Source of the DNA: a virus
Strand: one strand, 5' to 3'
IMG/VR virus record: IMGVR_UViG_3300024350_000006
Length of the DNA stretch: 64,000 bases
Of the stretch, positions 9,805 through 26,417 are shown in pieces. The notes under the pieces were generated by a model, which was not told where the DNA came from, made no database searches, and saw nothing but the letters and a program-made list of their open reading frames with translations. Position numbers and translations under genes: made by a program. Position 1 is the first letter of the stretch. Each line of letters begins with the position of its first letter.

Positions 9805-9947
9805 AAGTGCAATGTGGAACGAGGCCACTGCTCACTATAAAAAGCTAAACGGGCGGACAGTATATATGAAATCACGGCGAGAACGTTGAGAGTAAGACTA
9901 CTGGTTGGGGTGTCGACCCCAACATAATGCGAGGTAACTCGCATTAT
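9805..9947 (+). ncRNA. unknown structured RNA
   Basis: Non-coding; hairpins GTTGGGG/CCCCAAC, ATAATGCGAG-GTAA-CTCGCATTAT, CAGTA/TACTG. Confidence 0.5.
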
Positions 9948-10055
9948 TCTAAAGCACACTGGGCTAAGTACACGCCTATGCTCTGGACGCAGCCGGGCCG
10001 CCGTAAGGGGGCCTTTAAGGTGGACGGTTCGAATCCGTTAGTGTGTTTTAGAATA
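9945..10055 (+). ncRNA. stem-closed RNA cassette 1, contains a tRNA-like T-arm
   Basis: TATTCTAAAGCACACT / AGTGTGTTTTAGAATA closing stem; GACGG-TTCGAAT-CCGTT inside. Confidence 0.65.
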
Positions 10056-10109
10056 GTTCACCAAATATACTTTACAATTAGTGAGTTTGGCTATATACTA
10101 GAAAAATAC

Positions 10110-10204
10110 GGAGCGTTGGCCGAGTTGGTCGAAGGCACTTTCCTGCTAAGAAAGCATCTGGACAAAAATCTGGATCGTTGGTTCGAATCCAACACGCTCC
10201 GCCA
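10110..10204 (+). tRNA. tRNA-Ser(GCT)
   Basis: Long variable arm, loop CTGCTAA, GCCA end. Confidence 0.95.
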
Positions 10205-10223
10205 AATTATTAAGTGATGATAT

Positions 10224-10844
10224 ATGGTAAATAAAAGTTTCTTATATAAGAATATATTTTCTCAAGAAGAAGTTAATCAAATTTTAAATTTTTTTAAAAA
10301 TCAGCCAATAGCTACAAAAAATTATTTAAATTTTGATAAAAACCTTGATTACCATATTGAAGATAGTTTTGCCCATACTTTTATTAAACCAAAGATACAA
10401 GCTCTAATAGGTGATCATCATTTTGAAAACGGTAGCTACAAAGAATGTATCCAACCCTATACTATACATATAGACAATTATGCTTGGTGGGACGATACCT
10501 ATACTTTTAAAGCAGAAGAAAACCATCAATGTTTTTTGTTGATACCTCTCGTTACTAGTCCTAAATTACGTACTGTAACATTTGATATATTTTACGAAAA
10601 ACGTTATGAAATGGGAGAACCAATGCCCAGTGAATGGTTAGGTGTTAAAAATACACTAGATCTAGAAGACTTTTCGCATTGTAAGCCTGAAACCCGAGAG
10701 CAAATACAGTATCTTCCAGTTGATAGAGATTTAGAATGGCAAGCAGGCGATGTTATTAGATGGCATAAAAACCAATTACATTGCAGCACTGATTTTGCCA
10801 AATACGATTTAGTTAAAAAATTTGTATTATTGGGTCTAGCATAA
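10224..10844 (+). CDS. hypothetical, 2OG-Fe(II) oxygenase-like
   Basis: HID ... LHCS pattern. Confidence 0.6.
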   Translation: MVNKSFLYKNIFSQEEVNQILNFFKNQPIATKNYLNFDKNLDYHIEDSFAHTFIKPKIQALIGDHHFENGSYKECIQPYTIHIDNYAWWDDTYTFKAEENHQCFLLIPLVTSPKLRTVTFDIFYEKRYEMGEPMPSEWLGVKNTLDLEDFSHCKPETREQIQYLPVDRDLEWQAGDVIRWHKNQLHCSTDFAKYDLVKKFVLLGLA

Positions 10845-10853
10845 CAAAATAAA

Positions 10854-10943
10854 GGAAGTGTGGCAGAGTCCGGTTTAATGCACCTGTCTTGAAAACAGAC
10901 GATCAGAAATGGTCCGTGGGTTCGAATCCTACCACTTCCGCCA
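10854..10943 (+). tRNA. tRNA-Ser(TGA)
   Basis: Long variable arm, loop CTTGAAA, GCCA end. Confidence 0.95.
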
Positions 10944-11029
10944 GAATGTTCAAAAACTATCAATACCTATTGACTTAAATTAGAACTTAAAGTAATATGT
11001 GAACTTCATTAACTAAGTAGGAGTTCATA

Positions 11030-11287
11030 ATGAACATTAAACTTCGAGCAGCAGGTCGCACAGTGGGTATGATTGCCATAGCTACACTGGCTCCTCTGTT
11101 TGTAATGCTCTTGTTTAGGCTAGATAGTGATACACTTTTTGGTCTATTTACAATTTCCTTTTTCGCCTGGATGATCTGGGTAGTCTATTCAATTAATTTA
11201 ACGCAGTTGGAATCGGAAGAAAAAATTAAAGAGATTCAGGAACGTCGTAGTACAATGATTTCTGGTATGATTAAAGATCCGGAGTAG
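11030..11287 (+). CDS. small two-TM membrane protein
   Basis: AGGAG RBS, two hydrophobic segments; stop codon lies inside tRNA-Trp. Confidence 0.7.
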   Translation: MNIKLRAAGRTVGMIAIATLAPLFVMLLFRLDSDTLFGLFTISFFAWMIWVVYSINLTQLESEEKIKEIQERRSTMISGMIKDPE

Positions 11288-11351
11288 TATAGTGGCAGTG
11301 CGGCGGTCTCCAAAACCGTTAGTGGGGGTTCGATTCCCTCCTCCGGAGCCA
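11278..11351 (+). tRNA. tRNA-Trp(CCA)
   Basis: Cloverleaf, loop CTCCAAA. Confidence 0.93.
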
Positions 11352-11374
11352 ACAATTTTTCTAGGAGTATAATT

Positions 11375-11554
11375 ATGAAGTATCTAAGACTTGCAGTTCC
11401 TACTAGCATTTTTATTTTGTGTTTTCTTAATCTTGCCTTGGCTGTACATCAACACAATGATATGGCGATATGGGCTAATGTAACAGCCCTGTTTGGTTGG
11501 TTAATTGTCAGCGCAGACGAATACACCTATTTTAAGACTAGAGGGACATTGTGA
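11375..11554 (+). CDS. small membrane protein (59 aa), paralog of the next ORF
   Basis: AGGAG RBS; MKYLRLAVPTSIFILCFLNL...GWLIV. Confidence 0.6.
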   Translation: MKYLRLAVPTSIFILCFLNLALAVHQHNDMAIWANVTALFGWLIVSADEYTYFKTRGTL

Positions 11555-11742
11555 AAGGCAGTATATTAAAAATAATTGTACCCGTGCTTTTAGTAATAAT
11601 GGGGGCGATTGGTATAGGCACGTATTATGTGCAGGGGAATATGCCAGCAGTGTCTGGATATTTTAGTGCAACACTGGGTTGGCTTATTGTAGCTGGTTTC
11701 AATACAGTCAATTATATTAAAGAGAAAGAATATCTTGTTTAA
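11551..11742 (+). CDS. small membrane protein
   Basis: Two TM segments, shares GWLIV with the upstream ORF, GTGA overlap. Confidence 0.6.
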   Translation: MKGSILKIIVPVLLVIMGAIGIGTYYVQGNMPAVSGYFSATLGWLIVAGFNTVNYIKEKEYLV

Positions 11743-11923
11743 ATTTCCTCTACGTGAATGGCCACATTATATTAAATGGAAATGGCAACAGTTGTTTAGA
11801 CGTAAAAATTTTATGTAATAAAGATAGTCCGGCCTGTAGTTGGGGTATAGCTAGAATTTACTAGTGAACGTATAGGACGCTATGCGCTACGGACATCTAG
11901 GAGGTAATAAGCCTCCAACCTAT

Positions 11924-12001
11924 GCATCGGTACCAGAGAGGCCTAATGGCGGGGTCTGCAAAACCTTCGATTCGCTGGTTCGAATCCAGCCCGATGCTCC
12001 A
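11924..12001 (+). tRNA. tRNA-Cys(GCA)
   Basis: Cloverleaf, loop CTGCAAA, TCCA end. Confidence 0.93.
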
Positions 12002-12012
12002 GGATACTTTGA

Positions 12013-12085
12013 TGCGGGTTAGGGAAGAGGTCATCCCGTTAGGCTCATAACCTGAAGATCGTTGGTTCGAATCCAGCACCCGCTT
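12013..12085 (+). tRNA. tRNA-Met(CAT), initiator-like, no encoded CCA
   Basis: Unpaired 1:72, GGCTCATAACC arm as in fMet tRNAs. Confidence 0.8.
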
Positions 12086-12117
12086 CAAAGTATCTTGCCA
12101 ATCTTATAAATATTTTT

Positions 12118-12354
12118 ATGTTATGGGATTGGCATATCTTCCAGTACCGAGCGGAAATACCCTGGCCACAGATGCCCGATGCGCAACTGGACTGGGTCTG
12201 GGGGTTATACTCCGTGGAAAACTGGTTGACCTCTAATGTGGGCCCTAGATATTCTAACTGGGCTTTTGAACCCACTGATCAAATTTACAATATAGGTGTC
12301 GCTTTCCGCTGGGAGCGAGATCAAGTTCTTTTCGTCCTTAAATGGACTCAGTAA
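12118..12354 (+). CDS. hypothetical protein
   Basis: TATAAATA motif upstream; ends in LFVLKW like several paralogs at 44-46 kb. Confidence 0.65.
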   Translation: MLWDWHIFQYRAEIPWPQMPDAQLDWVWGLYSVENWLTSNVGPRYSNWAFEPTDQIYNIGVAFRWERDQVLFVLKWTQ

Positions 12355-12364
12355 AATAATTTAT

Positions 12365-12457
12365 ACTTGGGTAGTGTAACGGTAGCACGACGAGATTTAT
12401 AACCTCGATACGCTAGATGGGCGGTTAGAGAGGGTTCGAATCCCTCCCCAAGTACCA
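12365..12457 (+). tRNA. atypical tRNA, anticodon TAT (Ile), long variable arm
   Basis: ACTTGGG/CCCAAGT acceptor, loop TTTATAA, ~22 nt variable region, T-arm, ACCA. Confidence 0.8.
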
Positions 12458-12464
12458 AAACAAT

Positions 12465-12540
12465 GCGGGCGTAGCTCAGTTGGTAGAGCGTTACCTTGCC
12501 AAGGTAAATGTCGTCAGTTCGAACCTGATCGCCCGCTCCA
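12465..12540 (+). tRNA. tRNA-Gly(GCC)
   Basis: Canonical cloverleaf. Confidence 0.96.
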
Positions 12541-12637
12541 GTTACTTTAAGGGGAAACAAAATGGGGCAATCGCAGTTTTTATTCTTGTAGTGTACTTAC
12601 TGGTCCTAATCGATAATAATGTAAAATAAATATTTGG

Positions 12638-12859
12638 ATGATTTATGTTGACTATGATAACACTGGACTAGAGATTTATATGGTCACTAATGATTACAAC
12701 GAATGTTTAATTAGGACTACCAATCGCGGCCTAGCCTATTTTGTAGATAAACACAGTCGCGGTCTTAAACAGGGGATGTTTCTTGTAGTTGGAGGAGACC
12801 CTGGATCAAGAAAAGCTAGGCGCCCAATATTTCATCATATAAGGCGTTATTCCAGGTAG
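12638..12859 (+). CDS. hypothetical protein
   Basis: ORF downstream of TAAATA motif. Confidence 0.6.
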   Translation: MIYVDYDNTGLEIYMVTNDYNECLIRTTNRGLAYFVDKHSRGLKQGMFLVVGGDPGSRKARRPIFHHIRRYSR

Positions 12860-12922
12860 TTGTTCAAAAAACTTGTGTTAAATGTATTTTCAAGTATAAT
12901 GTAAGGCAGTTAGGAAAAAATT

Positions 12923-13192
12923 ATGGATATTACAGTAGCAACAAATTTTGTAACAAGTACTTTATTGATTAGCGTGGCCTGTATGATAGTAGCAGGTTGT
13001 GCAATTTTAATTAACAATATGATTCACAGATGGTGGAAGCCTTTAAGCTGGAGTATTGTGCCGCAGAGTATAAAGGATGTTATATCAGGAAACTTTGAAC
13101 AACCTGCCAAGGAAGTTAAAGAACCTGTAAAACAAGAACCACACATTGAACATCAGGAAAATACAGTAACACAAGTACGAGTTAAAGATTAA
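12923..13192 (+). CDS. hypothetical membrane protein
   Basis: N-terminal TM helix, AGGA RBS. Confidence 0.65.
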   Translation: MDITVATNFVTSTLLISVACMIVAGCAILINNMIHRWWKPLSWSIVPQSIKDVISGNFEQPAKEVKEPVKQEPHIEHQENTVTQVRVKD

Positions 13193-13198
13193 TTTCTA

Positions 13199-13274
13199 GC
13201 CGCTGTAGCTCAGTTGGTAGAGCGCCTGATTTGTAATCAGGATGTCGAGGGTTCGATTCCTTTCGGCGGCACCA
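13199..13274 (+). tRNA. tRNA-Thr(TGT)
   Basis: Canonical cloverleaf. Confidence 0.96.
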
Positions 13275-13277
13275 AGA

Positions 13278-13480
13278 ACCTCGTAGTCCCATCTACGTTA
13301 TTAACTGGGGGTAAATTGGCTTCACCATAATGCCAGGGCTCATACGATGATAGCCTCAAGGCCCGCTATATGGGCGACTTGAAAAATCGTAGGTGGGTAC
13401 TACGCCTTGCCAGAAGTAAATGTAGAGGACGGAGTAACAGCCCAGTCTGGGGCTGATGAGGATCAGTAGCCAGACAACTT
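13278..13480 (+). ncRNA. unknown structured RNA (family A, copy 1)
   Basis: CGTAGTCCCATCTACG pairs with CGTAGGTGGGTACTACG; terminal GTCTGG/CCAGAC hairpin; motifs shared with 22440-22630. Confidence 0.6.
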
Positions 13481-13648
13481 ATTTTTTTAACCTAGGTACT
13501 ATTGTAGTATGCTAGGTTTTTTTATGCGTTGACAACAAGGAGATCCTGTTATGGATAGTGACAAGAAGGGTCTATTAAGATATGGTTGGACATATCGCGA
13601 TAGGCTTAAACGAGCAGCAATAATGTTCCAACTATATGGTATTACAAT

Positions 13649-13725
13649 GGGTGCGTAACTCAACTGGTTAGAGTAATCGGCTTTTAACCGATAAGTTGTG
13701 AGTTCGAGTCTCACCGCACCTACCA
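13649..13725 (+). tRNA. tRNA-Lys(TTT)
   Basis: Cloverleaf, loop CTTTTAA. Confidence 0.95.
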
Positions 13726-13811
13726 TATAAAAACACATTCGAATATAATAATAATAGCGCCCGGGGCTATGGAGAGTATACGACTGTCCAGGAATGTGTT
13801 TTTATATGGTA
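13721..13811 (+). ncRNA. stem-closed RNA cassette 2
   Basis: Perfect 20 bp inverted repeat TACCATATAAAAACACATTC / GAATGTGTTTTTATATGGTA. Confidence 0.6.
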
Positions 13812-14177
13812 CTAGTAAAAACTTATCTAGGGCCTAGCCCTATACACGGACTGGGAGTATTTGCAGATGAATTTGTCCCACAAGGAACTAAAATCTGGCA
13901 GCTAACACCAGGTCTAGATCTAGAGTGGTGTTATTTGGATTTTATTTCTCTACCACTCGCCGCACGAGAGTACATATTACATTGGGGATACAAAGATCCT
14001 GAATCTCAAATGTACAGATTAAGTTTTGACAATGACAGATTTATGAATTGGAGTCGAACTCCAAATGTCGTAGGTAATAGCAATGAAACATTTGCGGCTA
14101 GAGATATTGACAAAGGTGAAGAATTAACTTATCCATATTCCGAAGATTTATTAGGAGATCAAGATGCCAATGTATGA
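13806..14177 (+). CDS. SET domain protein (lysine methyltransferase-like)
   Basis: SPIHGLGVFA...RFMNWS..PN...AARDIDKGEELTYPY. Confidence 0.88.
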   Translation: MVLVKTYLGPSPIHGLGVFADEFVPQGTKIWQLTPGLDLEWCYLDFISLPLAAREYILHWGYKDPESQMYRLSFDNDRFMNWSRTPNVVGNSNETFAARDIDKGEELTYPYSEDLLGDQDANV

Positions 14178-14313
14178 AACTACTGTGCGTACTCCTCAGG
14201 GAGAGACTAAAGATAGGGTGTATGCCAAGGATCTTCAAGAAGCTCGTCAACTATTTGAGCAGCGACACGGTCCTAGGAATGTACCTTATATTCCCAAAGT
14301 TATACCTAGTTAA
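14164..14313 (+). CDS. small hypothetical protein (49 aa)
   Basis: AGGAG RBS; MPMYETTVRTPQGETKDRVYA... Confidence 0.6.
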   Translation: MPMYETTVRTPQGETKDRVYAKDLQEARQLFEQRHGPRNVPYIPKVIPS

Positions 14314-14317
14314 TAAA

Positions 14318-14392
14318 GGAAGCGTAGCATAATGGTAGTGCAACACCTTCATACGGTGCGCTGTGGGGGTTCGACTCCCTCCGCTTCTACCA
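14318..14392 (+). tRNA. tRNA-Met(CAT)
   Basis: Cloverleaf, loop TTCATAC. Confidence 0.85.
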
Positions 14393-14411
14393 ATTTAACT
14401 AAAATAAATTT

Positions 14412-14729
14412 ATGAAAAAATGTCTTCATTGTGGTATTAAACATTCTCAAAAAATATCCACCTGCACAGTATGTAGAAACGGCCTACGCAGATATGGGAT
14501 GACTAGATTGGATATGTTAGCTCTGCACAAAAAACAAAAAGAAAAATGTTATTTGTGTGGGGTAAAATTAGAAATGTTTGTGGGTGCCCGCGGCGGTATG
14601 ATAGATCACTGCCACAAGACTGGGCAAGTAAGAAGTATCCTGTGCTGTAAATGCAACACCGCAGTGGGTGGAATAGAAACTCACAAAAATGTCAAAAAGT
14701 TATTAGAATATGTAAAACTCGGGGAGTAG
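14412..14729 (+). CDS. endonuclease VII-family (His-Me) nuclease, possibly a homing endonuclease
   Basis: CYLC...IDHCHKTGQVRSILCCKCN. Confidence 0.88.
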   Translation: MKKCLHCGIKHSQKISTCTVCRNGLRRYGMTRLDMLALHKKQKEKCYLCGVKLEMFVGARGGMIDHCHKTGQVRSILCCKCNTAVGGIETHKNVKKLLEYVKLGE

Positions 14730-14797
14730 CTTAGTCTGGTTAAAGCGCCTGCTTTGGGAGCAGGAGATCGAGAGTTCGAATCCCTCTTCCCCGACCA
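14720..14797 (+). tRNA. tRNA-Pro(TGG)
   Basis: Cloverleaf, loop TTTGGGA. Confidence 0.95.
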
Positions 14798-14798
14798 A

Positions 14799-15230
14799 TT
14801 ATTTAGGTGCCCAGGCGTTACAGCAAGCTCTGGGTTTCACCTTAGTATCTAGATTGAAAAAATCAGGAATTTTTTGGTTTAAAGTTTCAAAAAACGTACA
14901 AGTAGTTCCTTCTAGTGCCACACAGTTTTCACATCTAACCTTGGCAACTACGTAGCCTGCATCCTTGGGTGTAATAGAGTCCATTATAACCTGATTATCT
15001 GCAGGTACACCCTGTACGTAGAGACTACAACTGCCTTCAGCAACCACCTTGTAGTTTTTGCTAAACAGTGTGCATCTTTCACTGTCCGGCATAAAATGAG
15101 AACAGCTACTACACTGAGCAAAGTCCTTGATGTTATTCCTGGGTTCTAGGTAGATAAATGCGTCCCTACGAACTTTGTCAGAACTTTTTGTTGCTTCGGT
15201 AATTATGTTTATGTAGGATCTTAAATTCAT
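14799..15230 (-). CDS. Cys-rich protein with two HiPIP-like repeats
   Basis: CSSCSHF...C...GSCSLY and CENC...C...ACCNAW; TAAATA upstream on the - strand. Confidence 0.65.
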   Translation of the reverse strand: MNLRSYINIITEATKSSDKVRRDAFIYLEPRNNIKDFAQCSSCSHFMPDSERCTLFSKNYKVVAEGSCSLYVQGVPADNQVIMDSITPKDAGYVVAKVRCENCVALEGTTCTFFETLNQKIPDFFNLDTKVKPRACCNAWAPK

Positions 15231-15247
15231 AGTAATATTTATTTTAT

Positions 15248-15322
15248 GCCTTCGTAGCTCAGTGGTAGAGCATCGTCTTGATAAGGCGAGGGTCGGTGGA
15301 TCGTTCCCACCCGGAGGTACCA
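15248..15322 (+). tRNA. tRNA-Ile(GAT)
   Basis: Cloverleaf; atypical T-loop ATCGTTC. Confidence 0.9.
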
Positions 15323-15329
15323 GAACAAT

Positions 15330-15406
15330 TGGGGATTCGCCAAGTTGGTCAAGGCATCGGATTTTGATTCCGACATTCATAGGTTCGAATCCTATATCCC
15401 CTACCA
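15330..15406 (+). tRNA. tRNA-Gln(TTG)
   Basis: Cloverleaf, loop TTTTGAT. Confidence 0.92.
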
Positions 15407-15413
15407 TAACAAT

Positions 15414-15489
15414 GGTGACTGTAGCATAACGGTAGTGCCACGGATTGTGATTCCGTACAGTGTGAGTTCGACTCTCATCAGTCACCCCA
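15414..15489 (+). tRNA. tRNA-His(GTG)
   Basis: G-1/C73, loop TTGTGAT. Confidence 0.94.
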
Positions 15490-15495
15490 ATTTAA

Positions 15496-15571
15496 GCCGT
15501 CCAAGCTAACCTAGTGGAAGCGTCTGTCTGAAGAACAGAATGGCCTGGAGCGTAACCAGGGGTCGGCACCA
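15496..15571 (+). tRNA. tRNA-Phe(GAA), atypical
   Basis: Loop CTGAAGA; A8 and T-loop AGCGTAA deviate from consensus. Confidence 0.82.
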
Positions 15572-15575
15572 ATTA

Positions 15576-15650
15576 CGGTCCGTAGCTCAGCGGAAGAGTT
15601 CTGGTCTTCGAAACCAGCTGTCGGGAGTTCGAATCTCTCCGGACCGGCCA
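15576..15650 (+). tRNA. tRNA-Arg(TCG)
   Basis: Cloverleaf, loop CTTCGAA. Confidence 0.92.
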
Positions 15651-15822
15651 GCAAAATAAAATTAGTCTTGCTAGGTGATAAATACAAGTGCAACGCCAAG
15701 TTAATTGACGTCGGCAATTCAAACGACGCTTGACATATTGATGTCTTTACTGTATTGTTAATACAGAACGCCAGCCGTGAGCAGGATGCACTGCGAGCAC
15801 TACACCAACACAAGGACAAATA

Positions 15823-20448: not shown

Positions 20449-20465
20449 ACGATAAGGAGCAAGCA

Positions 20466-20708
20466 ATGTTAACAACTAAACAAGCACGTGAAATTGTTAA
20501 TAAACAAATTAAATATTTTCAGAGCTGGACGGATAAAAGTCGCGCTAGTGATGGTGAAGCGATGCGTAATGTTTGTTTTCACGTGGGCTACCTTACTAAA
20601 GAAAGTGATATTGCTAAAATTAAAAATAGTCTAGAGCTTGCTGGGCATACTGGCAAGACTAGGTTGATGGGTGGTTATCTGCGTTTAACCAACTTGGAAA
20701 TAAATTAA
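20466..20708 (+). CDS. hypothetical early protein
   Basis: AAGGAG RBS downstream of the promoter. Confidence 0.7.
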   Translation: MLTTKQAREIVNKQIKYFQSWTDKSRASDGEAMRNVCFHVGYLTKESDIAKIKNSLELAGHTGKTRLMGGYLRLTNLEIN

Positions 20709-20816
20709 TTAAAAAAGTAGTTGACAGTAATTGCACTAGATGATATAATATAAGACTGCACTAAACGATGCAGCCCAAGTAGTAGAAAAAAGTTCTATAA
20801 CAATTAGTAAAACAAT

Positions 20817-20900
20817 GCCCTGGTGGTGGAATGGTAGACACGCTAGTCTTAGGAACTAGTATCGCAAGGTGTGGGAGTTCGAGTCTCCCCTGGGGCACCA
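20817..20900 (+). tRNA. tRNA-Leu(TAG)
   Basis: Long variable arm, loop CTTAGGA. Confidence 0.95.
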
Positions 20901-21125
20901 TATTAAAATATATTAGGTTACCTAGCCAGTAGGGGGCCTAGAAGAGGATAACCACTTGACGGAGTGGCTCTTGCTAGGTCTCACGAAACCTTGAGATAAT
21001 ATCAGGAGGACGCTGGAACAACTAGGAACGTAATGTGTGACACAGACAAATCCGTGGACGGCACGGTTGGGCAGAGTTCAAAGGCTGCGATCTCTGTGAA
21101 GCATCCTAATATATTTTAATATGGT
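20897..21125 (+). ncRNA. stem-closed RNA cassette 3
   Basis: Perfect 21 bp inverted repeat ACCATATTAAAATATATTAGG / CCTAATATATTTTAATATGGT around a multi-hairpin insert. Confidence 0.65.
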
Positions 21126-21291
21126 ACAAGACTGTTCATATAACACTGCAATGGGATATGACAGGCTGCGTAAGTGTATTGGCTGGCACAGAAGCCCCAG
21201 TAGCGGAGAGTTGAAGCACTTGCAGGTGTGGATGAGTTCCGTGACCGGGCGTCTAGGTTGGGTTCGAATCCCATCGCATTTGTTTGCACCA
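21123..21291 (+). ncRNA. long tRNA-like RNA
   Basis: TGGG-TTCGAAT-CCCA T-arm and ACCA 3' end, but no standard cloverleaf. Confidence 0.5.
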
Positions 21292-21426
21292 TATTGAAGC
21301 ACATTTCTGTCATTGCCGTGCCAGCTTCACGGTGAGTACAAGAGTACGGAAGTAGCTACCCGACAGGTTGTACAAAGTTACAAGTGGGTTAATGACAGCC
21401 CCTTGGGAGTGTGTTTCAATATGGTG
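21287..21426 (+). ncRNA. stem-closed RNA cassette 4
   Basis: CACCATATTGAAGCACATT / AGTGTGTTTCAATATGGTG. Confidence 0.65.
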
Positions 21427-21427
21427 G

Positions 21428-21456
21428 TTGACATTAAAAGAATTTAGCTGTAATAT
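21428..21456 (+). promoter_or_regulatory. sigma70-type promoter for the large ncRNA
   Basis: TTGACA-17-TAATAT. Confidence 0.55.
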
Positions 21457-21461
21457 AGATA

Positions 21462-22348
21462 CTTAGGGAGTTTAATCTCTTGTTAGGCGGTTCGCCGTCT
21501 AACTAAGGATAAGTGGCGTGAGTCACCCAAAGCAGAATCCTCCTACAGGACTGCGCCAGAGATGGTCCAGTTAAACAAGCCTGCTCACTACCGCGAGGTA
21601 GCGATCACTGATAAGACCGGTGGTTGTAACAATGAAGCTGGTGTAGTGGAAAGAACTTGTATCGACTAGCCCGCAAGGGAACTAGGGTGCAAGGAAAGTA
21701 ACAGGTGGTGCTGACTTCACTACAAAACCAACCAGTTAGTTGGTATGAGAAAGGGTAGTGCATTTGTCCAAGGTTTCGCAGCCAAGGGCTTGTGTGCAGT
21801 ATGAATGGTACTTGGGGCTGCTGTGAGGCGTCACAAGAATCGTGAAATACTACTGAGTAGCCGGCAGGCGAAAGGTACGTGGTGTGTTGTATCGTGTATT
21901 CCAAAAGAGTATGCGGCAACTGGAGCAGCACATCATAGTAGGTTGATATAGCTCATTGGTAGAGCAACAGTCCTTTTAAACTGTAGGCAGTTGGTTCAAA
22001 TCCAACTATCATTAAACAAAAACGCAAAGACTGCTCCGGTTGTATGTGAAAAGCATCTAACACTTAGGGCGTAAGCTAACTAAGTTCAGTCTAACCCGCA
22101 AGGTGAAACTGATTTGTACTAGAAGATTCGTAGCTCGCAAGGCTTAATGGACCGCAAGTTCAACGGGTAATAAGGTACAGAGTAGCATACAATGACAAGA
22201 CTACTGCCTGTCTTTAAACGGCGATGCTGCAAGCAGACTGGATCACATAGCGATATGGATCTTGTGGATGTCGTGGAGAAGATTGGCTCGCAAGGCTGAC
22301 TATAATACCCGAGGTGCTTGTAGTTAAGATGTAATCTCAGTCTTAACA
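21462..22348 (+). ncRNA. large ornate ncRNA, GOLLD-like
   Basis: ~880 nt without a credible ORF, elevated GC, many GNRA-capped hairpins (CCGCAAGG, CGCGAG, GCGAAAG), inside a phage tRNA cluster, embedded tRNA-like domain. Confidence 0.7.
21942..22014 (+). pseudogene. embedded tRNA-Lys-like element with 8-nt anticodon loop, no CCA
   Basis: D-arm GCTC/GAGC, ACAGT-CCTTTTAA-ACTGT, T-arm GTTGG-TTCAAAT-CCAAC. Confidence 0.75.
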
Positions 22349-22438
22349 CTTTCTAAAACACATTGTAGTGGATTTCACAAGTATGAGTCGCATTCTAAAG
22401 AGTGCCCTTGAGATTGGATATAGTGTGTTTCAGAAAGT
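22348..22438 (+). ncRNA. stem-closed RNA cassette 5
   Basis: ACTTTCTAAAACACATTGTA / TATAGTGTGTTTCAGAAAGT. Confidence 0.6.
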
Positions 22439-22439
22439 C

Positions 22440-22630
22440 AAGAATCCGGTTACTACTTTCCTAAAAGTAGCGTATGGCACACGACAAGGCCCGGTGGCTA
22501 GGGCACCGTTAGCGTTACTAGAGACAGACGACCTAGCAGCGTGGACACTTCGTCGGCCGTCTGCCAAACAGTGTTCGGACAGGGTAACAACTCCAGGATA
22601 GGGGCGACCGTGGAAAAGCGTGGCCTAACC
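22440..22630 (+). ncRNA. unknown structured RNA (family A, copy 2)
   Basis: TACTAC...AAGTA and GGACAGGGTAACAACTCCAG motifs shared with 13278-13480. Confidence 0.55.
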
Positions 22631-22632
22631 AA

Positions 22633-22791
22633 TATATTAGCAAGTGTTATCGATGAAACATTGGGTATCGTAAACTGATCATTTACTATGCGGGCCTAAC
22701 TGGCGTGGAACAGGTCCTGACATAACCAGCCATACGCTCTGGAACGGAAGCACCGGACTCCTAAATTGGCACGATAGCACTTACTAATATA
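22633..22791 (+). ncRNA. stem-closed RNA cassette 6 (divergent stem)
   Basis: TATATTAGCAAGTGTTATCG / CGATAGCACTTACTAATATA. Confidence 0.55.
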
Positions 22792-22803
22792 ATACTAATA
22801 TAA

Positions 22804-22878
22804 GGTTCCATAGTATATCGGTTAGTACACCGCCCTGTCACGGCAGAAGGAGGGGTTCGACTCCCCTTGGGACCGCCA
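22804..22878 (+). tRNA. tRNA-Asp(GTC)
   Basis: Cloverleaf, loop CTGTCAC. Confidence 0.94.
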
Positions 22879-22953
22879 AGTTTCTCTACACTACATCTAA
22901 GCCTTGATAGGTAGGGGAAGGCAGGTGGCTTAGGCTTGCCGAGAGTTTTTATT

Positions 22954-23030
22954 GCACCGTTAGACATCTGGTTGAGGTCACCACCCTTTCAAGGTGGCTA
23001 GAGCGGGTTCGAATCCCCTACGGTGTACCA
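22954..23030 (+). tRNA. tRNA-Glu(TTC)
   Basis: Cloverleaf, loop CTTTCAA. Confidence 0.92.
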
Positions 23031-23141
23031 AGATGCACAGTGTCGCTTTACGCTGTGGCAGGACGGCCTCTGTATCCTAGGACTCAAGCCTCTCAGACTG
23101 CAACTAGAGTTCTCGCAAAAGAACATAGCAAGATTTAGATT

Positions 23142-23228
23142 GGGTGCTTAGTCCCGTAATGGTATCGGGGGCAGACTGTAAATCTGTTGTCTTTGGCCTT
23201 CTCTGTTCGAATCGGAGAGCACCCACCA
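23142..23228 (+). tRNA. tRNA-Tyr(GTA)
   Basis: Loop CTGTAAA, variable arm. Confidence 0.93.
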
Positions 23229-23244
23229 AGTTAAGAAAGTAGAT

Positions 23245-23448
23245 ATGTATAAAGTATATTGGACCTACGGTGATGAAACCTACGGTCAAGAATTTGAAGA
23301 TATGACAGAAGCACTTAATTATTGTCAGCATCTTAGAAGTACTGGTAGAAAGTATGTTACTATGTGCAGCGAGCTTGCTGATATGGTTGGCGAGTTTGGT
23401 GTAACGGAAACTGGACCTGGTTATGATTGGAAAAAACGTAGAGATTAA
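23245..23448 (+). CDS. hypothetical protein
   Basis: 67 aa ORF filling the space between two tRNAs. Confidence 0.7.
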   Translation: MYKVYWTYGDETYGQEFEDMTEALNYCQHLRSTGRKYVTMCSELADMVGEFGVTETGPGYDWKKRRD

Positions 23449-23449
23449 T

Positions 23450-23527
23450 CCGTCCTTAGCTCAGTAGGATTAGAGCATCAGGCTACGAACTTGAAGGTCG
23501 GGGGTTCGACTCCCTCAGGACGGTCCA
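23450..23527 (+). tRNA. tRNA-Arg(ACG)
   Basis: Cloverleaf, loop CTACGAA. Confidence 0.94.
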
Positions 23528-23538
23528 AAAATAATTAA

Positions 23539-23784
23539 ATGGATTTAATAAAAAACATTTCAGAGAAAGCCAAGGAGTCAGTGCCCAAGGGAGTACTGGC
23601 TCCTGACCTTTGGATAGAACATTATAATAAAATATTTGCTAGGTTAGTTGTACAGGAATGTCTAGACATTTTAAATGAACACATTCGGGAAGACAGTAAA
23701 GAAGAGAGGGATATATACTTAAAAAGTTTTAGACAGGATCTAAAACAACATTTTGGTCTAGGGAGAAATCAAGACAATGAATAG
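23539..23784 (+). CDS. hypothetical protein
   Basis: FARLVVQEC...HFGL, paralogous to the next ORF. Confidence 0.65.
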   Translation: MDLIKNISEKAKESVPKGVLAPDLWIEHYNKIFARLVVQECLDILNEHIREDSKEERDIYLKSFRQDLKQHFGLGRNQDNE

Positions 23785-24073
23785 CAATCTATTGGACGAC
23801 CTTATGTATCAAGCAGGTATGACTGCTCAGGGTTGCTGGGACAATCTTGACGATTATGATAAAGAGGCCATACTGAGATTGGCTAAATTAATAGTGCAAG
23901 AGTGTGTAAAATCTTGCGGTAGCCAGGCAGACAAGGCTAACATCTTAAAAACTTTTGGCCTGCCTGTGGAATCCAATGTTAAATATATTAGTCCTGAAGC
24001 ATCAGGTAGTGTGGACTCTCAATATAGAAGAAGATATAACCTAGCACCCACTCAGGGAGTAAATAATGACTAA
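23777..24073 (+). CDS. hypothetical protein
   Basis: LAKLIVQEC...TFGL. Confidence 0.65.
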   Translation: MNSNLLDDLMYQAGMTAQGCWDNLDDYDKEAILRLAKLIVQECVKSCGSQADKANILKTFGLPVESNVKYISPEASGSVDSQYRRRYNLAPTQGVNND

Positions 24074-24214
24074 GAAAAAAGTCAAAACTGATACTGAACT
24101 AGATAAAAAATGTAATGCAGCAATAAAAAGAGTTAATAAACATATAGATACACTTGTTGCACGACATTTAAAAGAGATGGGACTTGTCGTAACTGATACT
24201 AAAAAAATAATTTA

Positions 24215-25267
24215 ATGAAACCCAGTCATTTTTATTTCGACGATAAAATATTAGAACGCGAACAATTACTTTTTAAACAGGCAAGATATCTAGGACACGA
24301 ACTATCTGTCAATAACTATCGCACACTTCCACAGGACAATAGTGGTAGAGTGTTAGTTAAAAACAACAACGGTATAGAGTGTATAGAAAATGTCTGCCGC
24401 CACCGCCAAGCAGTAATGCTAACAGGCAGTGGAGAAACATCAAACATTATTTGTCCATTACACGGCTGGACCTACAATCTAGAAGGCGAACTTGTTGGCG
24501 CCCCACATTTTGATCCTTGCCCTAATAGACCACTAAGAAAATTTAGCACACAGAGCTGGAACGGTCTATTTTTTGAATCAGGTAAGTTTAACATTGTTCG
24601 AGATCTTATTGGTATGAGAGCTGGTAAGTATTTTGATTTTAACAATTACCAGTACCATAGCACTCAGGAACATCATTGTGATTACAACTGGAAGACCTTT
24701 ATAGAAGTCTACCTAGACGATTATCACGTGGTACCTTTCCATCCTGGCCTTGGTAATTTTGTAGATTGTAATAAACTAGACTGGCAGTTTGGTGACTGGT
24801 ATAGTGTGCAGACTGTGGGAGTTCATAATGAATTGCGCACTCCCGGTACACCAGTTTATCGTCGCTGGCACGATGTATTAATGAATTATCGTAAGGGACA
24901 AATACCTGAATTTGGGGCAATATGGCTGACCATCTATCCTAATGTAATGGTGGAATGGTATCCTGAAGTTTTAGTAATTTCTAGTCTGTGGCCGGAAACA
25001 CCACAGCGCACAAAAAATATTGTTGAATTTTATTATCCCGAGGATATAGCTTTATTTGAACCTGAGTTTGTTCAAGCTCATCAGGCTGCCTATATGGAAA
25101 CCTGTTATGAAGATGATGAAATAGCAAGGCGTATGGATCAGGGTAGATGTCATCTTAATAACAATAATTATAGTGATTACGGACCTGTACACAATCCTAT
25201 GGAACTAGGTCTAGAATATTTTTACAAGTATTACAACAATTATGTTTTTGGTTTATTTGGCGAATAA
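24215..25267 (+). CDS. Rieske non-heme iron oxygenase alpha subunit
   Basis: CRHR...CPLHGWTY Rieske motif; NWK...DDYHVVPFH iron site. Confidence 0.93.
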   Translation: MKPSHFYFDDKILEREQLLFKQARYLGHELSVNNYRTLPQDNSGRVLVKNNNGIECIENVCRHRQAVMLTGSGETSNIICPLHGWTYNLEGELVGAPHFDPCPNRPLRKFSTQSWNGLFFESGKFNIVRDLIGMRAGKYFDFNNYQYHSTQEHHCDYNWKTFIEVYLDDYHVVPFHPGLGNFVDCNKLDWQFGDWYSVQTVGVHNELRTPGTPVYRRWHDVLMNYRKGQIPEFGAIWLTIYPNVMVEWYPEVLVISSLWPETPQRTKNIVEFYYPEDIALFEPEFVQAHQAAYMETCYEDDEIARRMDQGRCHLNNNNYSDYGPVHNPMELGLEYFYKYYNNYVFGLFGE

Positions 25268-25307
25268 CAATTCGACTTAATAAACTTTTAGTAGTAAAAT
25301 GTTATAT

Positions 25308-25383
25308 GGGAAGTTAGCTCAGTTGGTAGAGCGTCTGCTTTACACGCAGAATGTCGGCGGTTCGATCCCGTCACTTCCTACCA
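25308..25383 (+). tRNA. tRNA-Val(TAC)
   Basis: Canonical cloverleaf. Confidence 0.96.
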
Positions 25384-25390
25384 ATTTTAT

Positions 25391-25466
25391 TCCAGCGTAG
25401 CTCAGTGGTAGTAGCAGTTGACTGTTAATCAATTGGTCGTTGGTTCGATCCCAACCGCTGGAGCCA
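25391..25466 (+). tRNA. tRNA-Asn(GTT)
   Basis: Canonical cloverleaf. Confidence 0.95.
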
Positions 25467-25485
25467 ATTTTATAAGGGGAAAGTA

Positions 25486-25695
25486 ATGCTAATAACGGAA
25501 GCTCAGGGTTATAAACTCTATTGTGAAGTCACGCCAGTGGATTTTCCCCCGGCACTTTTTAGAGTGCATATTTTTACTAAGTTCGACTGGGCCAAGGACC
25601 CCGAGGCCATACAGACCAAGATGGAACTGTTTTTTGATGAGGCTGAACTGGAAGCTTTTAGAACCGCTTTGAGCGTACCACGCCTAGATCAGTAA
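25486..25695 (+). CDS. hypothetical protein
   Basis: ORF with AAGGGG RBS. Confidence 0.65.
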   Translation: MLITEAQGYKLYCEVTPVDFPPALFRVHIFTKFDWAKDPEAIQTKMELFFDEAELEAFRTALSVPRLDQ

Positions 25696-25714
25696 TTCCC
25701 TGTTAAATACAGGT

Positions 25715-25963
25715 ATGAAAGACCTGTTAAAGAATTTACCTCAAATATTAAGTGCTCTTCCCGAAATAGTTAAGTATTTAAAATATATACCTATTTTAAT
25801 GTTACTAGCGGGCATAGGCTATGGGGTATTGTATTATATGGACAATCACAAAGATCCCTACAAATGTGTCAATAACCACGTTTTTGAACAGTTAAGAATA
25901 GACAGTGATGTCTATGTGTTCAAGGGCGGTACTTGCATTGATGCCAAGGACCTAGAACAATGA
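25715..25963 (+). CDS. small membrane protein
   Basis: TM helix; TAAATA upstream. Confidence 0.65.
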   Translation: MKDLLKNLPQILSALPEIVKYLKYIPILMLLAGIGYGVLYYMDNHKDPYKCVNNHVFEQLRIDSDVYVFKGGTCIDAKDLEQ

Positions 25964-26244
25964 TAGTTTACCGTGTGCCTAGTTCTTTACTAACTGACTA
26001 TGCTCAAGTTGGCCAACATCAACAAGTGTTAGCCAAGTATAAAAGACAAGATGCTGAATTACAAAATTACAACGAACTTGTCAAGCTTATTTCTATGCAG
26101 GAAGGTCTTAGGTTATTAAGAAATTACAATTATATGAAGGACACTGAATTTTTAACTCAGTATGCCTATGCCGAAAGCATCAAGGAACAACGACTAGTAC
26201 AAAGAGCTGCTAGTGTTGGTCTCTATATAGACAGATACATATAA
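25960..26244 (+). CDS. hypothetical protein
   Basis: Coupled ORF (ATGA overlap). Confidence 0.6.
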   Translation: MIVYRVPSSLLTDYAQVGQHQQVLAKYKRQDAELQNYNELVKLISMQEGLRLLRNYNYMKDTEFLTQYAYAESIKEQRLVQRAASVGLYIDRYI

Positions 26245-26351
26245 TATTATCGCGTGTGAGGAAGTCGCCTTTACTGACGGCGTACAGTAGGATAAATTGT
26301 CAGTAGTCTACAGACCCCGTCTTAGCAGTCTCGGACGATAAACGAGACTGC

Positions 26352-26417
26352 ATATTGAAGCACATTGCGATGCCGTTCCGCGGCGGCGACCACAACGAGA
26401 GTAGTGTGTTTCAATAT
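26352..26417 (+). ncRNA. stem-closed RNA cassette 7
   Basis: ATATTGAAGCACATTGC / GTAGTGTGTTTCAATAT. Confidence 0.6.

What the first reader, a model, noticed from the sequence alone, without database searches (positions are those of the whole stretch)
9945..26417. Family of seven small RNA cassettes closed by a shared 16-21 bp stem
SEEN: Unrelated structured inserts (32-187 nt) are each bracketed by a long inverted repeat with consensus 5'-(CC)ATATTRAARCACAYT ... ARTGTGTTTYAATAT(GG)-3'. Copies lie at 9945-10055, 13721-13811, 20897-21125, 21287-21426, 22348-22438 and 26352-26417, with a divergent one at 22633-22791. Differences between copies mostly keep pairing, often as G-U, which points to RNA-level function on the + strand. 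In three cases the left arm begins within the ACCA end of the preceding tRNA or tRNA-like RNA, so the stem would sequester the CCA. In cassette 2 the right arm also covers the likely ATG of the SET-domain gene. INFERENCE: the stem is a common processing signal (RNase III-like) or protein handle that releases a panel of cargo RNAs, perhaps decoys or antitoxin-like RNAs, from the tRNA polycistron.
Basis: partly seen in the sequence, partly recalled or inferred. Interest (0 to 1): 0.8.

Follow-up and report, generated by a model that had tools for sequence, protein, structure and literature searches.

The report
RNase III-type stem cassettes in phage tRNA array
A large uncultured phage, like well over a hundred uncultured relatives, separates the tRNAs and other small RNAs of its RNA operon with hairpins that share one constant stem. 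That stem matches, base pair by base pair, the phage T7 R1.1 cutting site of the host enzyme RNase III, so it is most likely a cut-here adaptor that frees the neighbouring RNAs and a swappable small RNA.

Summary
The core AARCACAYT / ARTGTGTTT occurs five times per strand in 64 kb, always as the two arms of one hairpin (C1, C2, C4, C5, C6). C3 keeps the same frame with a drifted core. C7 is a stem-closed RNA of another kind.

The stem is widespread. A pattern scan hit at least 118 uncultured viral contigs, nearly all in tRNA arrays. I analysed 134 distinct copies carrying about 102 unrelated cargoes. The polarity is fixed on the tRNA strand: U.G outnumbers C.A 89 to 2 at one position. In 56 copies the stem starts exactly on a tRNA's CCA.

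My main addition is that the constant stem reproduces the E. coli RNase III consensus defined on T7 R1.1 (proximal box, distal box UA/UG, spacing) in one register only. That fit explains the conserved U.G, the invariant A-U pairs and the tolerated A.C mismatch. A second, unrelated stalk around tRNA-Met in this window carries a complete R1.1-type set.

The same stem follows GOLLD RNA in 8 of 8 loci and fills the intervening segment of phage permuted tmRNA genes.

Nothing matches in Rfam, cultured phages or the papers searched. Cleavage and cargo function are untested. This scan found the same family earlier on other DNA.

The parts
9943..10057 (+). Cassette C1: constant stem closing a 79-nt tRNA-like cargo with a T arm at 10023-10039 that abuts the right arm
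   Evidence: Arms 9943-9962 / 10038-10057. Fold -49.5 kcal/mol, z -3.9. T arm found. RNase III consensus score 7/10 with pb4 at 9951; db2 is C-G. Predicted cuts 9950|9951 and 10051|10052 (inference).
13721..13811 (+). Cassette C2, docked on the CCA of tRNA-Lys (13649-13725). Its right arm holds the start codon of the SET-domain gene.
   Evidence: 20-bp perfect arms. Fold z -6.6. Score 8/10 with pb4 at 13730. Predicted cuts 13729|13730 and 13804|13805, which would leave U-AUG at the 5' end of the SET mRNA (ATG 13806).
20897..21125 (+). Cassette C3: drifted core, same register, docked on the CCA of tRNA-Leu (20817-20900). The 187-nt cargo is a conserved structured RNA.
   Evidence: 21-bp perfect arms. 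Cargo homologues in L086, L020, L047 and L101. Alignment A1 gives 75 pairs, 30 with compensatory changes; positions 0, +1, +6 and +8 of the closing stem are invariant. Score 8/10 with pb4 at 20905.
21287..21426 (+). Cassette C4, docked on the CCA of the tRNA-like RNA at 21126-21290. It lies just upstream of the GOLLD promoter.
   Evidence: Arms 21287-21309 / 21404-21426 with G.U at +2 and U.G at +7. Score 8/10; pb4 is G-C, a catalytic antideterminant in E. coli. Promoter TTGACA-17-TAATAT at 21428-21456.
22348..22438 (+). Cassette C5, starting 4-5 nt after the 3' end of GOLLD RNA. It is the best RNase III match in the window.
   Evidence: Rfam GOLLD hit 21879-22343. Arms 22348-22367 / 22419-22438, with A.C at -1 and U.G at +7. 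Score 9/10. The same cargo, 96% identical, sits in L041 with different outer arms and behind a tRNA. Predicted cuts 22354|22355 and 22433|22434.
26352..26417 (+). Cassette C6: the smallest copy (36-nt cargo), not preceded by CCA, at the end of a + strand unit
   Evidence: Arms 26352-26368 / 26401-26417. Cargo recurs in L022 (97%) and L037 (88%, where GCCG/CGGC has become GCUG/CAGC). Score 7/10; pb4 is G-C.
22631..22793 (+). C7: a stem-closed RNA of another kind, not a member of the core family. It is docked on the CCA-like end of the RNA at 22439-22632.
   Evidence: 22-bp stem with one bulge. The conserved cargo is closed by different, covarying stems in six contigs (alignment A2). The right arm overlaps a promoter-like site at 22766-22793, upstream of tRNA-Asp.
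12000..12097 (+). Independent R1.1-type stalk: a 13-bp extension helix stacked on the acceptor stem of a tRNA-Met that lacks an encoded CCA
   Evidence: Inverted repeat I4. Read outward on the 3' flank the pairs are A-U, A-U, A-U, G-C, then four pairs, then U.G, U-A, G-C. That meets all six pb and db determinants of uR1.1. Predicted cuts 12012|12013 and 12086|12087. Not conserved in other loci.
21427..22343 (+). GOLLD RNA (variable 5' domain plus Rfam-matched 3' domain), flanked by C4 and C5
   Evidence: RF02032, 214 bits, at 21879-22343. The 5' domain is 70-77% identical to eight other loci. In 8 of 8 complete GOLLD loci the family core starts 13 nt after the GOLLD model end.
13806..14177 (+). 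SET-domain gene whose start codon lies in the right arm of C2
   Evidence: Pfam SET, E 4e-10. The ORF starting at the arm's AUG is 123 codons.

Best explanation
The cassettes are transcribed RNA hairpins that punctuate the phage's long tRNA and small-RNA transcripts. Their constant 18-20 bp stem is a phage T7 R1.1-type recognition site for the host's double-strand-specific RNase III.

Numbering used here: the core AARCACAYU is positions 0 to +8, and the outer stem runs from -1 to -9.

- Positions -1 to +2 form the proximal box.
- The U.G at +7 and the U-A at +8 form the distal box.
- The outer AUAUGG/CCAUAU part forms the dyad-related second proximal box. The tRNA's own CCA supplies its C that pairs with G.

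Predicted cleavage (inferred, not shown):
- On the 5' arm, between -2 and -1.
- On the 3' arm, after the partner of -3.

Predicted consequences:
- The upstream tRNA or RNA is detached with 4 extra nucleotides, to be trimmed by 3' exonucleases.
- In the permuted-tmRNA variant the cut falls exactly after CCA.
- The downstream tRNA is left with a 3-nt leader for RNase P.
- The top of the hairpin (about 10 bp of stem plus cargo) is released as a small RNA with a 2-nt 3' overhang.
- In C2 the cut would also expose the sequestered AUG of the SET gene.

The constant core also acts as the seam at which cargoes and outer arms are exchanged between phages. What the cargoes do is unknown.
For: **RNA structure on the tRNA strand**
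- All tRNAs of a locus lie on one strand.
- In 134 non-redundant copies, 88% of cells in the stem (positions -9 to +8) are Watson-Crick. At +7, U.G outnumbers C.A 89 to 2. At +2, G.U outnumbers A.C 27 to 1.
- Different outer arms within one genome are each self-complementary.
- The + strand folds are more stable than the - strand folds.

**Docking on RNA ends**
- A tRNA's terminal A is exactly position -6 in 56 of 134 copies.
- 30 copies fill the whole tRNA-to-tRNA gap, with G+1 of the next tRNA in the right arm.

**Match to RNase III determinants**
- PMC1540722 defines the determinants: pb1 G-C, pb2 A-U or U-A, pb3 A-U, pb4 A-U or U-A with G-C a catalytic antideterminant, db U-A then U.G (stringent), and an 11-bp minimal helix. 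It also reports that natural R1.1 has a mismatch at pb4.
- The T7 genome sequence confirms the numbering.
- Family counts: 0 and +1 are A-U in 130-134 of 134; +8 is U-A in 130; +7 is U.G in 89; +5, +6, +7 and +8 equal C13, A14, U15 and U16 of uR1.1; +9 is paired in 114. Position -1 is A.C in 49, A-U in 32 and G-C in 33.
- In a register scan the mean score is 7.9 of 10 at this register, at most 4.8 in every other register and 6.0 at the dyad mate. This register is best in 125 of 134 copies. 72% of copies score 8 or more, against 2.2% of helices built from the same pairs in shuffled order.
- All six window members peak in this register.

**Independent support**
- In the diverged C3 clade the box positions stay fixed while +2, +3 and +5 covary.
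- The unrelated tRNA-Met stalk at 12000-12097 meets 6 of 6 pb and db determinants.
- pb4 is G-C in only 8 of 56 tRNA-docked copies against 25 of 78 others (Fisher p = 0.025).

**Context**
- The same stem abuts GOLLD's 3' end in 8 of 8 loci.
- It is the intervening segment of phage permuted tmRNA genes in 10 loci. There the predicted cut falls right after CCA.
Against:
- The determinants come from E. coli RNase III. The authors themselves say distal-box preferences may differ between bacteria, and the hosts here are unknown. Permuted tmRNA types in related contigs hint at alpha- or betaproteobacteria.
- pb1 is A-U rather than G-C in most copies.
- 33 of 134 copies, including C4 and C6 of this window, have G-C at pb4, which in E. 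coli allows binding but suppresses cutting.
- C1 and C2 lack the U.G.
- Family members are related, so the fit is essentially one consensus helix against one consensus (roughly p = 0.02).
- A plain hairpin would be enough for processing, so the model does not explain why the cargoes are long, structured and in part conserved.
- The literature attributes excision of the permuted tmRNA segment to tRNA-processing enzymes, not to RNase III.
Confidence: 0.6

Rival explanations
1. The hairpins are spacers excised only by the ordinary tRNA-processing enzymes: RNase P at the next tRNA, and RNase E, RNase Z or exonucleases at the CCA. The constant stem is then an exonuclease-proof clamp or the handle of an unidentified, possibly phage-encoded, RNA-binding protein that uses the cargo.
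For: - 30 copies span exactly from CCA to G+1 of the next tRNA, with U at -1 of that tRNA.
- Published views of permuted tmRNA maturation invoke tRNA-processing enzymes.
- The cargoes are structured and some are conserved with compensatory changes.
- 14 of 134 cargoes carry a T arm, like tRNA-mimicking Y RNAs or T4 rnaC.
Against: - It gives no reason for the oriented U.G, the invariant A-U pairs or the tolerated A.C at exactly the R1.1 spacing.
- A stable stem that begins on CCA would block exonucleolytic 3' trimming and hide the AU-rich single strand that RNase E needs.
- No RNA-binding or nuclease gene was found next to the cassettes among the 30 window proteins scanned.
Confidence: 0.25
2. 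The repeats act at the DNA level, either as terminal inverted repeats of a miniature mobile element or as attC-like or recombinase sites that shuffle tRNA and small-RNA gene cassettes. Transcription would be incidental.
For: - Cargoes and outer arms are clearly exchanged: about 102 cargo clusters in 134 copies, and 23 of 26 multi-member cargo clusters occur with more than one outer-arm version.
- The C5 cargo sits behind GOLLD here and behind a tRNA in L041.
- Filled and empty inter-tRNA sites both exist.
- The A.C at -1 would be a G.T on the opposite strand.
Against: - No target-site duplication at filled versus empty sites.
- The left end lies inside a functional tRNA CCA.
- Several different self-complementary arm versions coexist in one genome, which argues for intramolecular pairing rather than one protein's half-sites.
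- Wobble pairs strongly favour the transcribed strand everywhere except -1.
- The integron core sites (GTTRRRY / RYYYAAC) are not present in the arms, read directly from the consensus.
- No integrase or transposase was found among the 30 window proteins scanned.
Confidence: 0.08
3. The stem is a Y-RNA-like scaffold: a conserved helix bound by a Ro/Rsr-type protein, presenting tRNA-like or other modules.
For: The architecture resembles it: a long closing helix plus a variable module. About 10% of cargoes have a T arm stacked on the stem, C1 among them.
Against: - No Rfam Y_RNA or other match even at E <= 1.
- The helix has no conserved bulge.
- No TROVE-domain protein was found among the window proteins scanned.
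- Most cargoes are not tRNA-like.
Confidence: 0.04

Closest known systems
Phage T7 RNase III processing signals (R1.1 and the minimal substrate uR1.1; PMC1540722)
   Same: - A hairpin in a phage polycistronic transcript with about two helical turns.
- From the cleavage site inward the pairs are: weak pair or mismatch, A-U, A-U, (G-C), then four pairs ending C-G and A-U, then U.G, U-A, then one more pair.
- Four consecutive pairs (C-G, A-U, U.G, U-A) are identical to T7 R1.1.
   Different: - T7 sites lie between mRNAs and end in a tetraloop. These lie between tRNAs and small RNAs, start on a CCA end and carry 29-190 nt of variable structured cargo.
- pb1 is usually A-U.
- The lower stem is fully paired, so double-strand cutting is expected, whereas natural R1.1 is cut once.
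- Cleavage here is unproven.
Intervening segment of circularly permuted (two-piece) tmRNA genes (Rfam RF01850, RF01849, RF04321)
   Same: In 10 related viral loci the family stem is itself the segment between the acceptor piece's CCA and the 5' end of the coding piece. The topology is the same as between two tRNAs: from a CCA to the next RNase P site.
   Different: - No tmRNA is present in this window.
- The two cellular beta-type permuted tmRNA genes examined have short segments without the core.
- Published processing models name tRNA-processing enzymes, not RNase III.
Phage T4 stable RNAs rnaC and rnaD (species 1 and 2) in the T4 tRNA cluster
   Same: They are small stable non-tRNA RNAs co-located and co-oriented with phage tRNAs. 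rnaC has a T arm, like cargo C1 and the RNA at 21126-21290.
   Different: T4 rnaC and rnaD have no shared long closing stem and no R1.1-like core. They are two fixed genes, not a swappable family.
RNase III processing stalks of rRNA operons and excised intervening sequences of 23S rRNA
   Same: Long helices are cut by RNase III to free stable RNAs from a polycistronic precursor. The tRNA-Met stalk at 12000-12097 has exactly the stalk topology, with the flanks pairing around the mature RNA.
   Different: In the cassettes the helix closes the spacer, not the functional neighbour. The stem sequence is conserved across many phages.
Miniature inverted-repeat elements transcribed and cut by RNase III (for example the Neisseria Correia elements; recalled from memory)
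   Same: Repeated inverted repeats form RNA hairpins, with signs of mobility or exchange.
   Different: There is no target-site duplication, the interior is not conserved, and the ends coincide with functional RNA termini.

Membership tests
E. coli-type RNase III substrate (T7 R1.1 class) | [quoted passage not shown] | tested here: met
   Stems are 17-25 bp in the window. In the family, positions -9 to +9 are paired and +9 is paired in 114 of 134 copies.
E. coli-type RNase III substrate (T7 R1.1 class) | Distal box: a U-A pair then a U.G pair (U on the 5' strand), 9-10 bp from pb4 | tested here: met
   Family: +8 is U-A in 130 of 134 and +7 is U.G in 89 of 134 (C-G 29, U-A 14, C.A 2). In the window it is fully met in C4, C5 and C6. 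C1 has C-G, and C2 and C3 have U-A, at db2.
E. coli-type RNase III substrate (T7 R1.1 class) | Proximal box: pb1 G-C, pb2 A-U or U-A (no G-C), pb3 A-U, pb4 weak pair | tested here: inconclusive
   pb2 and pb3 are A-U in nearly all copies. pb4 is A.C or A-U in 81 copies and G-C in 33, including C4 and C6. pb1 is A-U in 98, G.U in 27 and G-C in 8, so the preferred G-C is mostly absent.
E. coli-type RNase III substrate (T7 R1.1 class) | Staggered cleavage by RNase III that leaves 2-nt 3' overhangs | not testable with these tools
No wet assay was possible.
Any Rfam family (release 15) | Covariance-model match over the cassette | tested here: not met
   Only tRNAs and GOLLD reach threshold. Nothing covers the cassettes even at E <= 1.
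Permuted tmRNA intervening segment | Lies between the acceptor-piece CCA and the coding-piece 5' end of a tmRNA gene | tested here: not met
   The window has no tmRNA. The feature is met only for sister copies in L022, L107, L035, L079, L091, L027, L072, L084, L111 and L114.
Y RNA / YrlA | Ro-binding helix with a conserved bulge, a Rfam Y_RNA match, and an Rsr/TROVE partner | tested here: not met
   No Rfam hit, no bulge in the consensus helix, and no TROVE protein among the window proteins scanned.
MITE / Correia-like mobile element | Terminal inverted repeats plus target-site duplication and a conserved interior | tested here: not met
   No duplication at filled versus empty inter-tRNA sites. 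There are about 102 unrelated interiors in 134 copies.
Integron attC site | R''/R' core sites RYYYAAC / GTTRRRY, extrahelical bases, and an IntI integrase | tested here: not met
   The arm consensus (A)CCAUAUWR-AARCACAYU / ARUGUGUUU-YWAUAUGG(U) contains neither core site and has no bulged bases. No integrase was found in the window proteins scanned.

The most novel reading that the evidence does not exclude
The constant stem is a universal plug-in adaptor. Any small RNA placed between its arms is expressed from the phage tRNA operon and released by RNase III with defined ends. Phages would trade a large library of such cargoes (over 100 kinds seen here) by recombination at the stem. The cargoes would be functional effectors, for example decoys for host tRNA-targeting or RNA-sensing defences, and the same adaptor would also set the 3' end of GOLLD and split phage tmRNA into two pieces.
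Probability: 0.3. Interest if true: 0.85.

Novelty: new variant of a known kind. Interest (0 to 1): 0.68.

Why it matters
Phage tRNA arrays are usually annotated as bare tRNAs, and the RNA between them is ignored. This work makes four points.

- The gaps hold a large, undescribed and exchangeable family of small RNAs with a shared stem.
- That stem now has a concrete, testable enzyme assigned to it, with nucleotide-level predictions of the cut sites.
- It links three open problems: how long phage tRNA transcripts are matured, how GOLLD RNA (function unknown) gets its 3' end, and how phage two-piece tmRNAs are split.
- It points to more than 100 candidate small RNAs whose function could be screened.

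The adaptor could also serve as a natural design for releasing RNAs with defined ends in bacteria.

Tried and rejected
- **Rfam.** Gathering thresholds and E <= 1 gave nothing on any cassette.
- **Cultured-phage collection.** No relative of the window was found. Short-query searches with C2 and C6 gave only noise.
- **Whole genome of the window.** Not held.
- **Protein-anchored relatives.** The SET protein found none, and the radical SAM protein found only 28-30% identical relatives.
- **Cellular genomes.** The pattern's hits are almost all chance: 10 of 121 sites have at least 7 of 8 outer pairs, against 106 of 137 in viral contigs.
- **Literature.** Five searches found no description of the motif.
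- **A cellular origin in the beta-proteobacterial tmRNA intervening segment.** The two bona fide cellular genes found among 121 genomes lack the core. Three genomes reached through loci had no permuted tmRNA.
- **Target-site duplications.** None.
- **The arm's AUG as a general translation start.** It opens a long ORF in only 5 of 97 copies.
- **T4 rnaC and rnaD as structural homologues.** They have no shared closing stem.
- **The tRNA-Met stalk in other contigs.** Not conserved.
- **RNase III scoring of C7.** Unreliable because of its bulge, so it was not used.
- **Neighbouring proteins.** Thirty window proteins were scanned. None is an RNase III, Ro, RNA ligase, integrase or transposase.

Full report
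**Setting.** The window comes from a large uncultured phage.
- It carries 29 tRNA genes, all on the + strand, between 7.7 and 32 kb.
- It carries a GOLLD RNA: Rfam RF02032, 214 bits, at 21879-22343.
- It has many auxiliary metabolic genes, a UvsW-type helicase and a ribonucleotide reductase.
- No whole genome is held for it, and no cultured phage is close.

**Observation.** All seven inverted repeats are present at the stated places.
- The 9-nt core AARCACAYT occurs exactly five times per strand in 64 kb, only as the two arms of C1, C2, C4, C5 and C6.
- Each cassette folds with its arms as the closing helix, with z-scores of -3.9 to -6.6. Each is 5-11 kcal/mol more stable on the + strand.
- C2, C3, C4 and C7 start on the ACCA of the preceding RNA.
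- The right arm of C2 contains both candidate ATGs of the SET-domain gene.
- C3 shares the outer stem only, and C7 shares neither part.

**A widespread family.** I scanned uncultured viral contigs for the two core halves 30-60 nt apart.
- Sequence outside the pattern is conserved: (A)CCAUAUWR-AARCACAYU ... ARUGUGUUU-YWAUAUGG(U).
- 106 of 137 viral sites have at least 7 of 8 outer pairs. Only 10 of 121 pattern hits in 596 Gb of cellular genomes do, so the latter serve as a chance control.
- The 118 viral loci plus the window (1.1 Mb) hold 1085 tRNA genes, always on one strand per locus.
- After removing duplicates and chimeric arm pairs, 134 distinct elements remain in 69 loci.
- They carry about 102 unrelated cargo clusters. 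23 of 26 multi-member cargo clusters occur with more than one outer-arm version.
- The cargo of C5 is 96% identical in L041. There it has other outer arms and follows a tRNA instead of GOLLD.
- The cargo of C6 recurs in L022 and in L037, in L037 with a compensatory GCCG/CGGC to GCUG/CAGC change.
- Cultured phages gave no match. Rfam gave none even at E <= 1. Five literature searches found no description.
- Earlier notes of this scan describe the same family on other genomes.

**Polarity and anatomy.** I number the core 0 to +8 and the outer stem -1 to -9. All counts below are on the tRNA strand.
- 88% of stem cells are Watson-Crick.
- +7 is U.G in 89 copies, C-G in 29, U-A in 14 and C.A in 2.
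- +2 is A-U in 98, G.U in 27, G-C in 8 and A.C in 1.
- Positions 0, +1, +6 and +8 are nearly invariant.
- -1 is A.C in 49, G-C in 33, A-U in 32 and G.U in 0.
- The search pattern treated both strands symmetrically at +7, so that asymmetry is real.
- The helix is therefore an RNA structure on the transcribed strand, with one conserved wobble and one tolerated mismatch.
- In 56 copies the terminal A of a tRNA's CCA is exactly position -6. Another 30 have CCA there without a recognisable tRNA. 30 copies span precisely from one tRNA's CCA to G+1 of the next.
- Inter-tRNA spacers in these arrays are either 1-12 nt or hold an element. No target-site duplication is seen.

**RNase III test.** I read it and tested the idea position by position.
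- The paper defines, on the T7-derived minimal substrate uR1.1: pb4 A7:U32, pb3 A8:U31, pb2 A9:U30, pb1 G10:C29, middle box U12:G27 and C13:G26, db2 U15.G24 (a stringent requirement; changing UG to GU costs 50-fold) and db1 U16:A23.
- It also defines an 11-bp minimal helix, G-C at pb4 as a catalytic antideterminant, and a mismatch at pb4 in natural R1.1.
- The T7 genome sequence (AAGGTCATTCGCAAGAGTGGCCTTTAT) confirms this numbering.
- Mapping -1 to pb4, 0 to pb3, +1 to pb2, +2 to pb1, +7 to db2 and +8 to db1 reproduces the spacing exactly.
- The mapping accounts for the invariant A-U pairs, the oriented U.G, the paired +9 and the odd A.C at -1, which is a weak pair next to the scissile bond.
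- By dyad symmetry the outer AUAUGG/CCAUAU stem reads as a second proximal box (U-A, A-U, U-A, G-C).
- In a scan of all registers and both orientations with ten constraints, the family mean is 7.9 at this register, at most 4.8 elsewhere and 6.0 at the dyad mate. This register is best in 125 of 134 copies.
- 72% of copies score at least 8, against 2.2% of helices made of the same pairs in shuffled order.
- Because the copies are related, this amounts to about p = 0.02 for one consensus helix.

**Three further observations add independent weight.**
- The five-sequence alignment of the C3 clade has 75 predicted pairs, 30 with compensatory changes. In its diverged closing stem the box positions (0, +1, +6, +8, and +7 as U.G or U-A) stay fixed while +2, +3 and +5 covary.
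- In this window the tRNA-Met at 12013-12086 lacks an encoded CCA and is enclosed by a 13-bp extension helix of unrelated sequence. Read outward along the 3' flank, that helix gives A-U, A-U, A-U, G-C, four pairs, U.G, U-A, G-C. All six pb and db determinants are met.
- pb4 is G-C in 8 of 56 tRNA-docked copies against 25 of 78 others (p = 0.025).

**Window scores.** C5 scores 9. C2, C3 and C4 score 8. C1 and C6 score 7. All peak in the same register.

**Predicted events (inferred).**
- Cuts fall between -2 and -1 on the left arm and after the partner of -3 on the right arm.
- The upstream tRNA keeps CCA plus 4 nt. From general knowledge of E. coli tRNA maturation, these would be removed by 3' exonucleases.
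- The downstream tRNA keeps a 3-nt leader ending in U for RNase P.
- The hairpin top leaves as a small RNA.
- In the permuted-tmRNA variant (...UCCACCA-G-AAACACAYU) the left cut falls exactly after CCA. Ten loci carry this variant, each with a Rfam permuted tmRNA hit that encloses the element.
- In C2 the right cut (13804|13805) would leave U-AUG at the start of the SET mRNA and so unmask a sequestered start codon. This use of the arm's AUG is rare in the family: 5 of 97 copies.

**GOLLD.** In all eight complete GOLLD loci (the window, L082, L026, L070, L040, L107, L007 and L009) the family core begins 13 nt after the end of the Rfam GOLLD model. At least six different cargoes are involved. 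The element is therefore a conserved 3' boundary of this GOLLD lineage.

**Limits.**
- Nothing shows cleavage.
- The hosts are unknown and their RNase III may read other features.
- pb1 is mostly A-U.
- C4 and C6 have the E. coli catalytic antideterminant at pb4.
- C1 and C2 lack the U.G.
- Processing alone does not explain why cargoes are long, structured, sometimes tRNA-like (14 of 134 with a T arm, C1 among them) and in part conserved.

**Rivals kept.**
- Excision by tRNA-processing enzymes alone, with the stem as a protein handle or clamp.
- A DNA-level exchange or mobility site. The exchange itself is real, but the structure evidence favours RNA.
- A Y-RNA-like scaffold.

**Verdict.**
The 'decoy' idea is untested.
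- The family is absent from Rfam, from cultured phages and from the papers searched.
- The mechanism proposed is a new variant of a known kind, the phage RNase III processing hairpin.

Noticed in passing
window 12000-12097: A tRNA-Met (12013-12086) ends in UCA instead of CCA. It is enclosed by a 13-bp extension helix that starts at the CCA of tRNA-Cys and carries a complete T7 R1.1-type set of RNase III determinants. The stalk is not conserved in the related contigs.
   Followed up: partly
window 21427-22343: The GOLLD RNA has its own strong sigma-70-type promoter (TTGACA-17-TAATAT, 21428-21456) and an embedded tRNA-like unit (21942-22014, irregular anticodon loop). Its 5' domain is 70-77% identical to eight other viral contigs.
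   Followed up: partly
window 22439-22632, 13275-13500 and 9800-9944: Three further non-coding stretches have homologues (64-84% identity) in 8-12 of the viral contigs each. The first ends in AACCA and docks C7. The second ends in an intrinsic-terminator-like hairpin. None matches Rfam.
   Followed up: partly
window 21126-21290: A tRNA-like RNA with a T arm (GGGTTCGAATCCC) and a GCACCA end, not called by ARAGORN or Rfam. No homologue was found in the fetched loci, and its single-sequence fold is no better than shuffles.
   Followed up: partly
window 21112-21130 with 21283-21301: The right arm of C3 can pair over 19 bp with the left arm of C4, enclosing the tRNA-like RNA between them. Because all arms are alike, neighbouring cassettes can form alternative helices around the intervening RNA. 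The same cross-pairs appear in L008, L058, L105 and L120.
   Followed up: no
window 31865-31939: ARAGORN calls a tRNA with anticodon CTA (labelled Pyl), that is, a candidate amber-suppressor tRNA. This might point to stop-codon reassignment or suppression late in infection.
   Followed up: no
window 12365-12457: tRNA-Ile (anticodon TAT) is 93 nt long, unusually long for this isoacceptor. It may carry an insertion.
   Followed up: no
window 22766-22793: A near-consensus promoter-like site (TTGGCA-16-TATAAT) lies inside the right arm of C7, just upstream of tRNA-Asp. This stem may overlap a transcription start.
   Followed up: no
window 9539-9590: A 20-bp hairpin with a 12-nt loop overlaps a promoter-like site, upstream of the conserved non-coding stretch that precedes C1. 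It does not fit the RNase III consensus well (6 of 10).
   Followed up: partly
L022 13913-14302; L107 754-1160; L035, L079, L091, L027, L072, L084, L111, L114: Many of the related viral contigs encode circularly permuted (two-piece) tmRNA genes of the beta or alpha type. Their intervening segment is a member of this stem family.
   Followed up: yes
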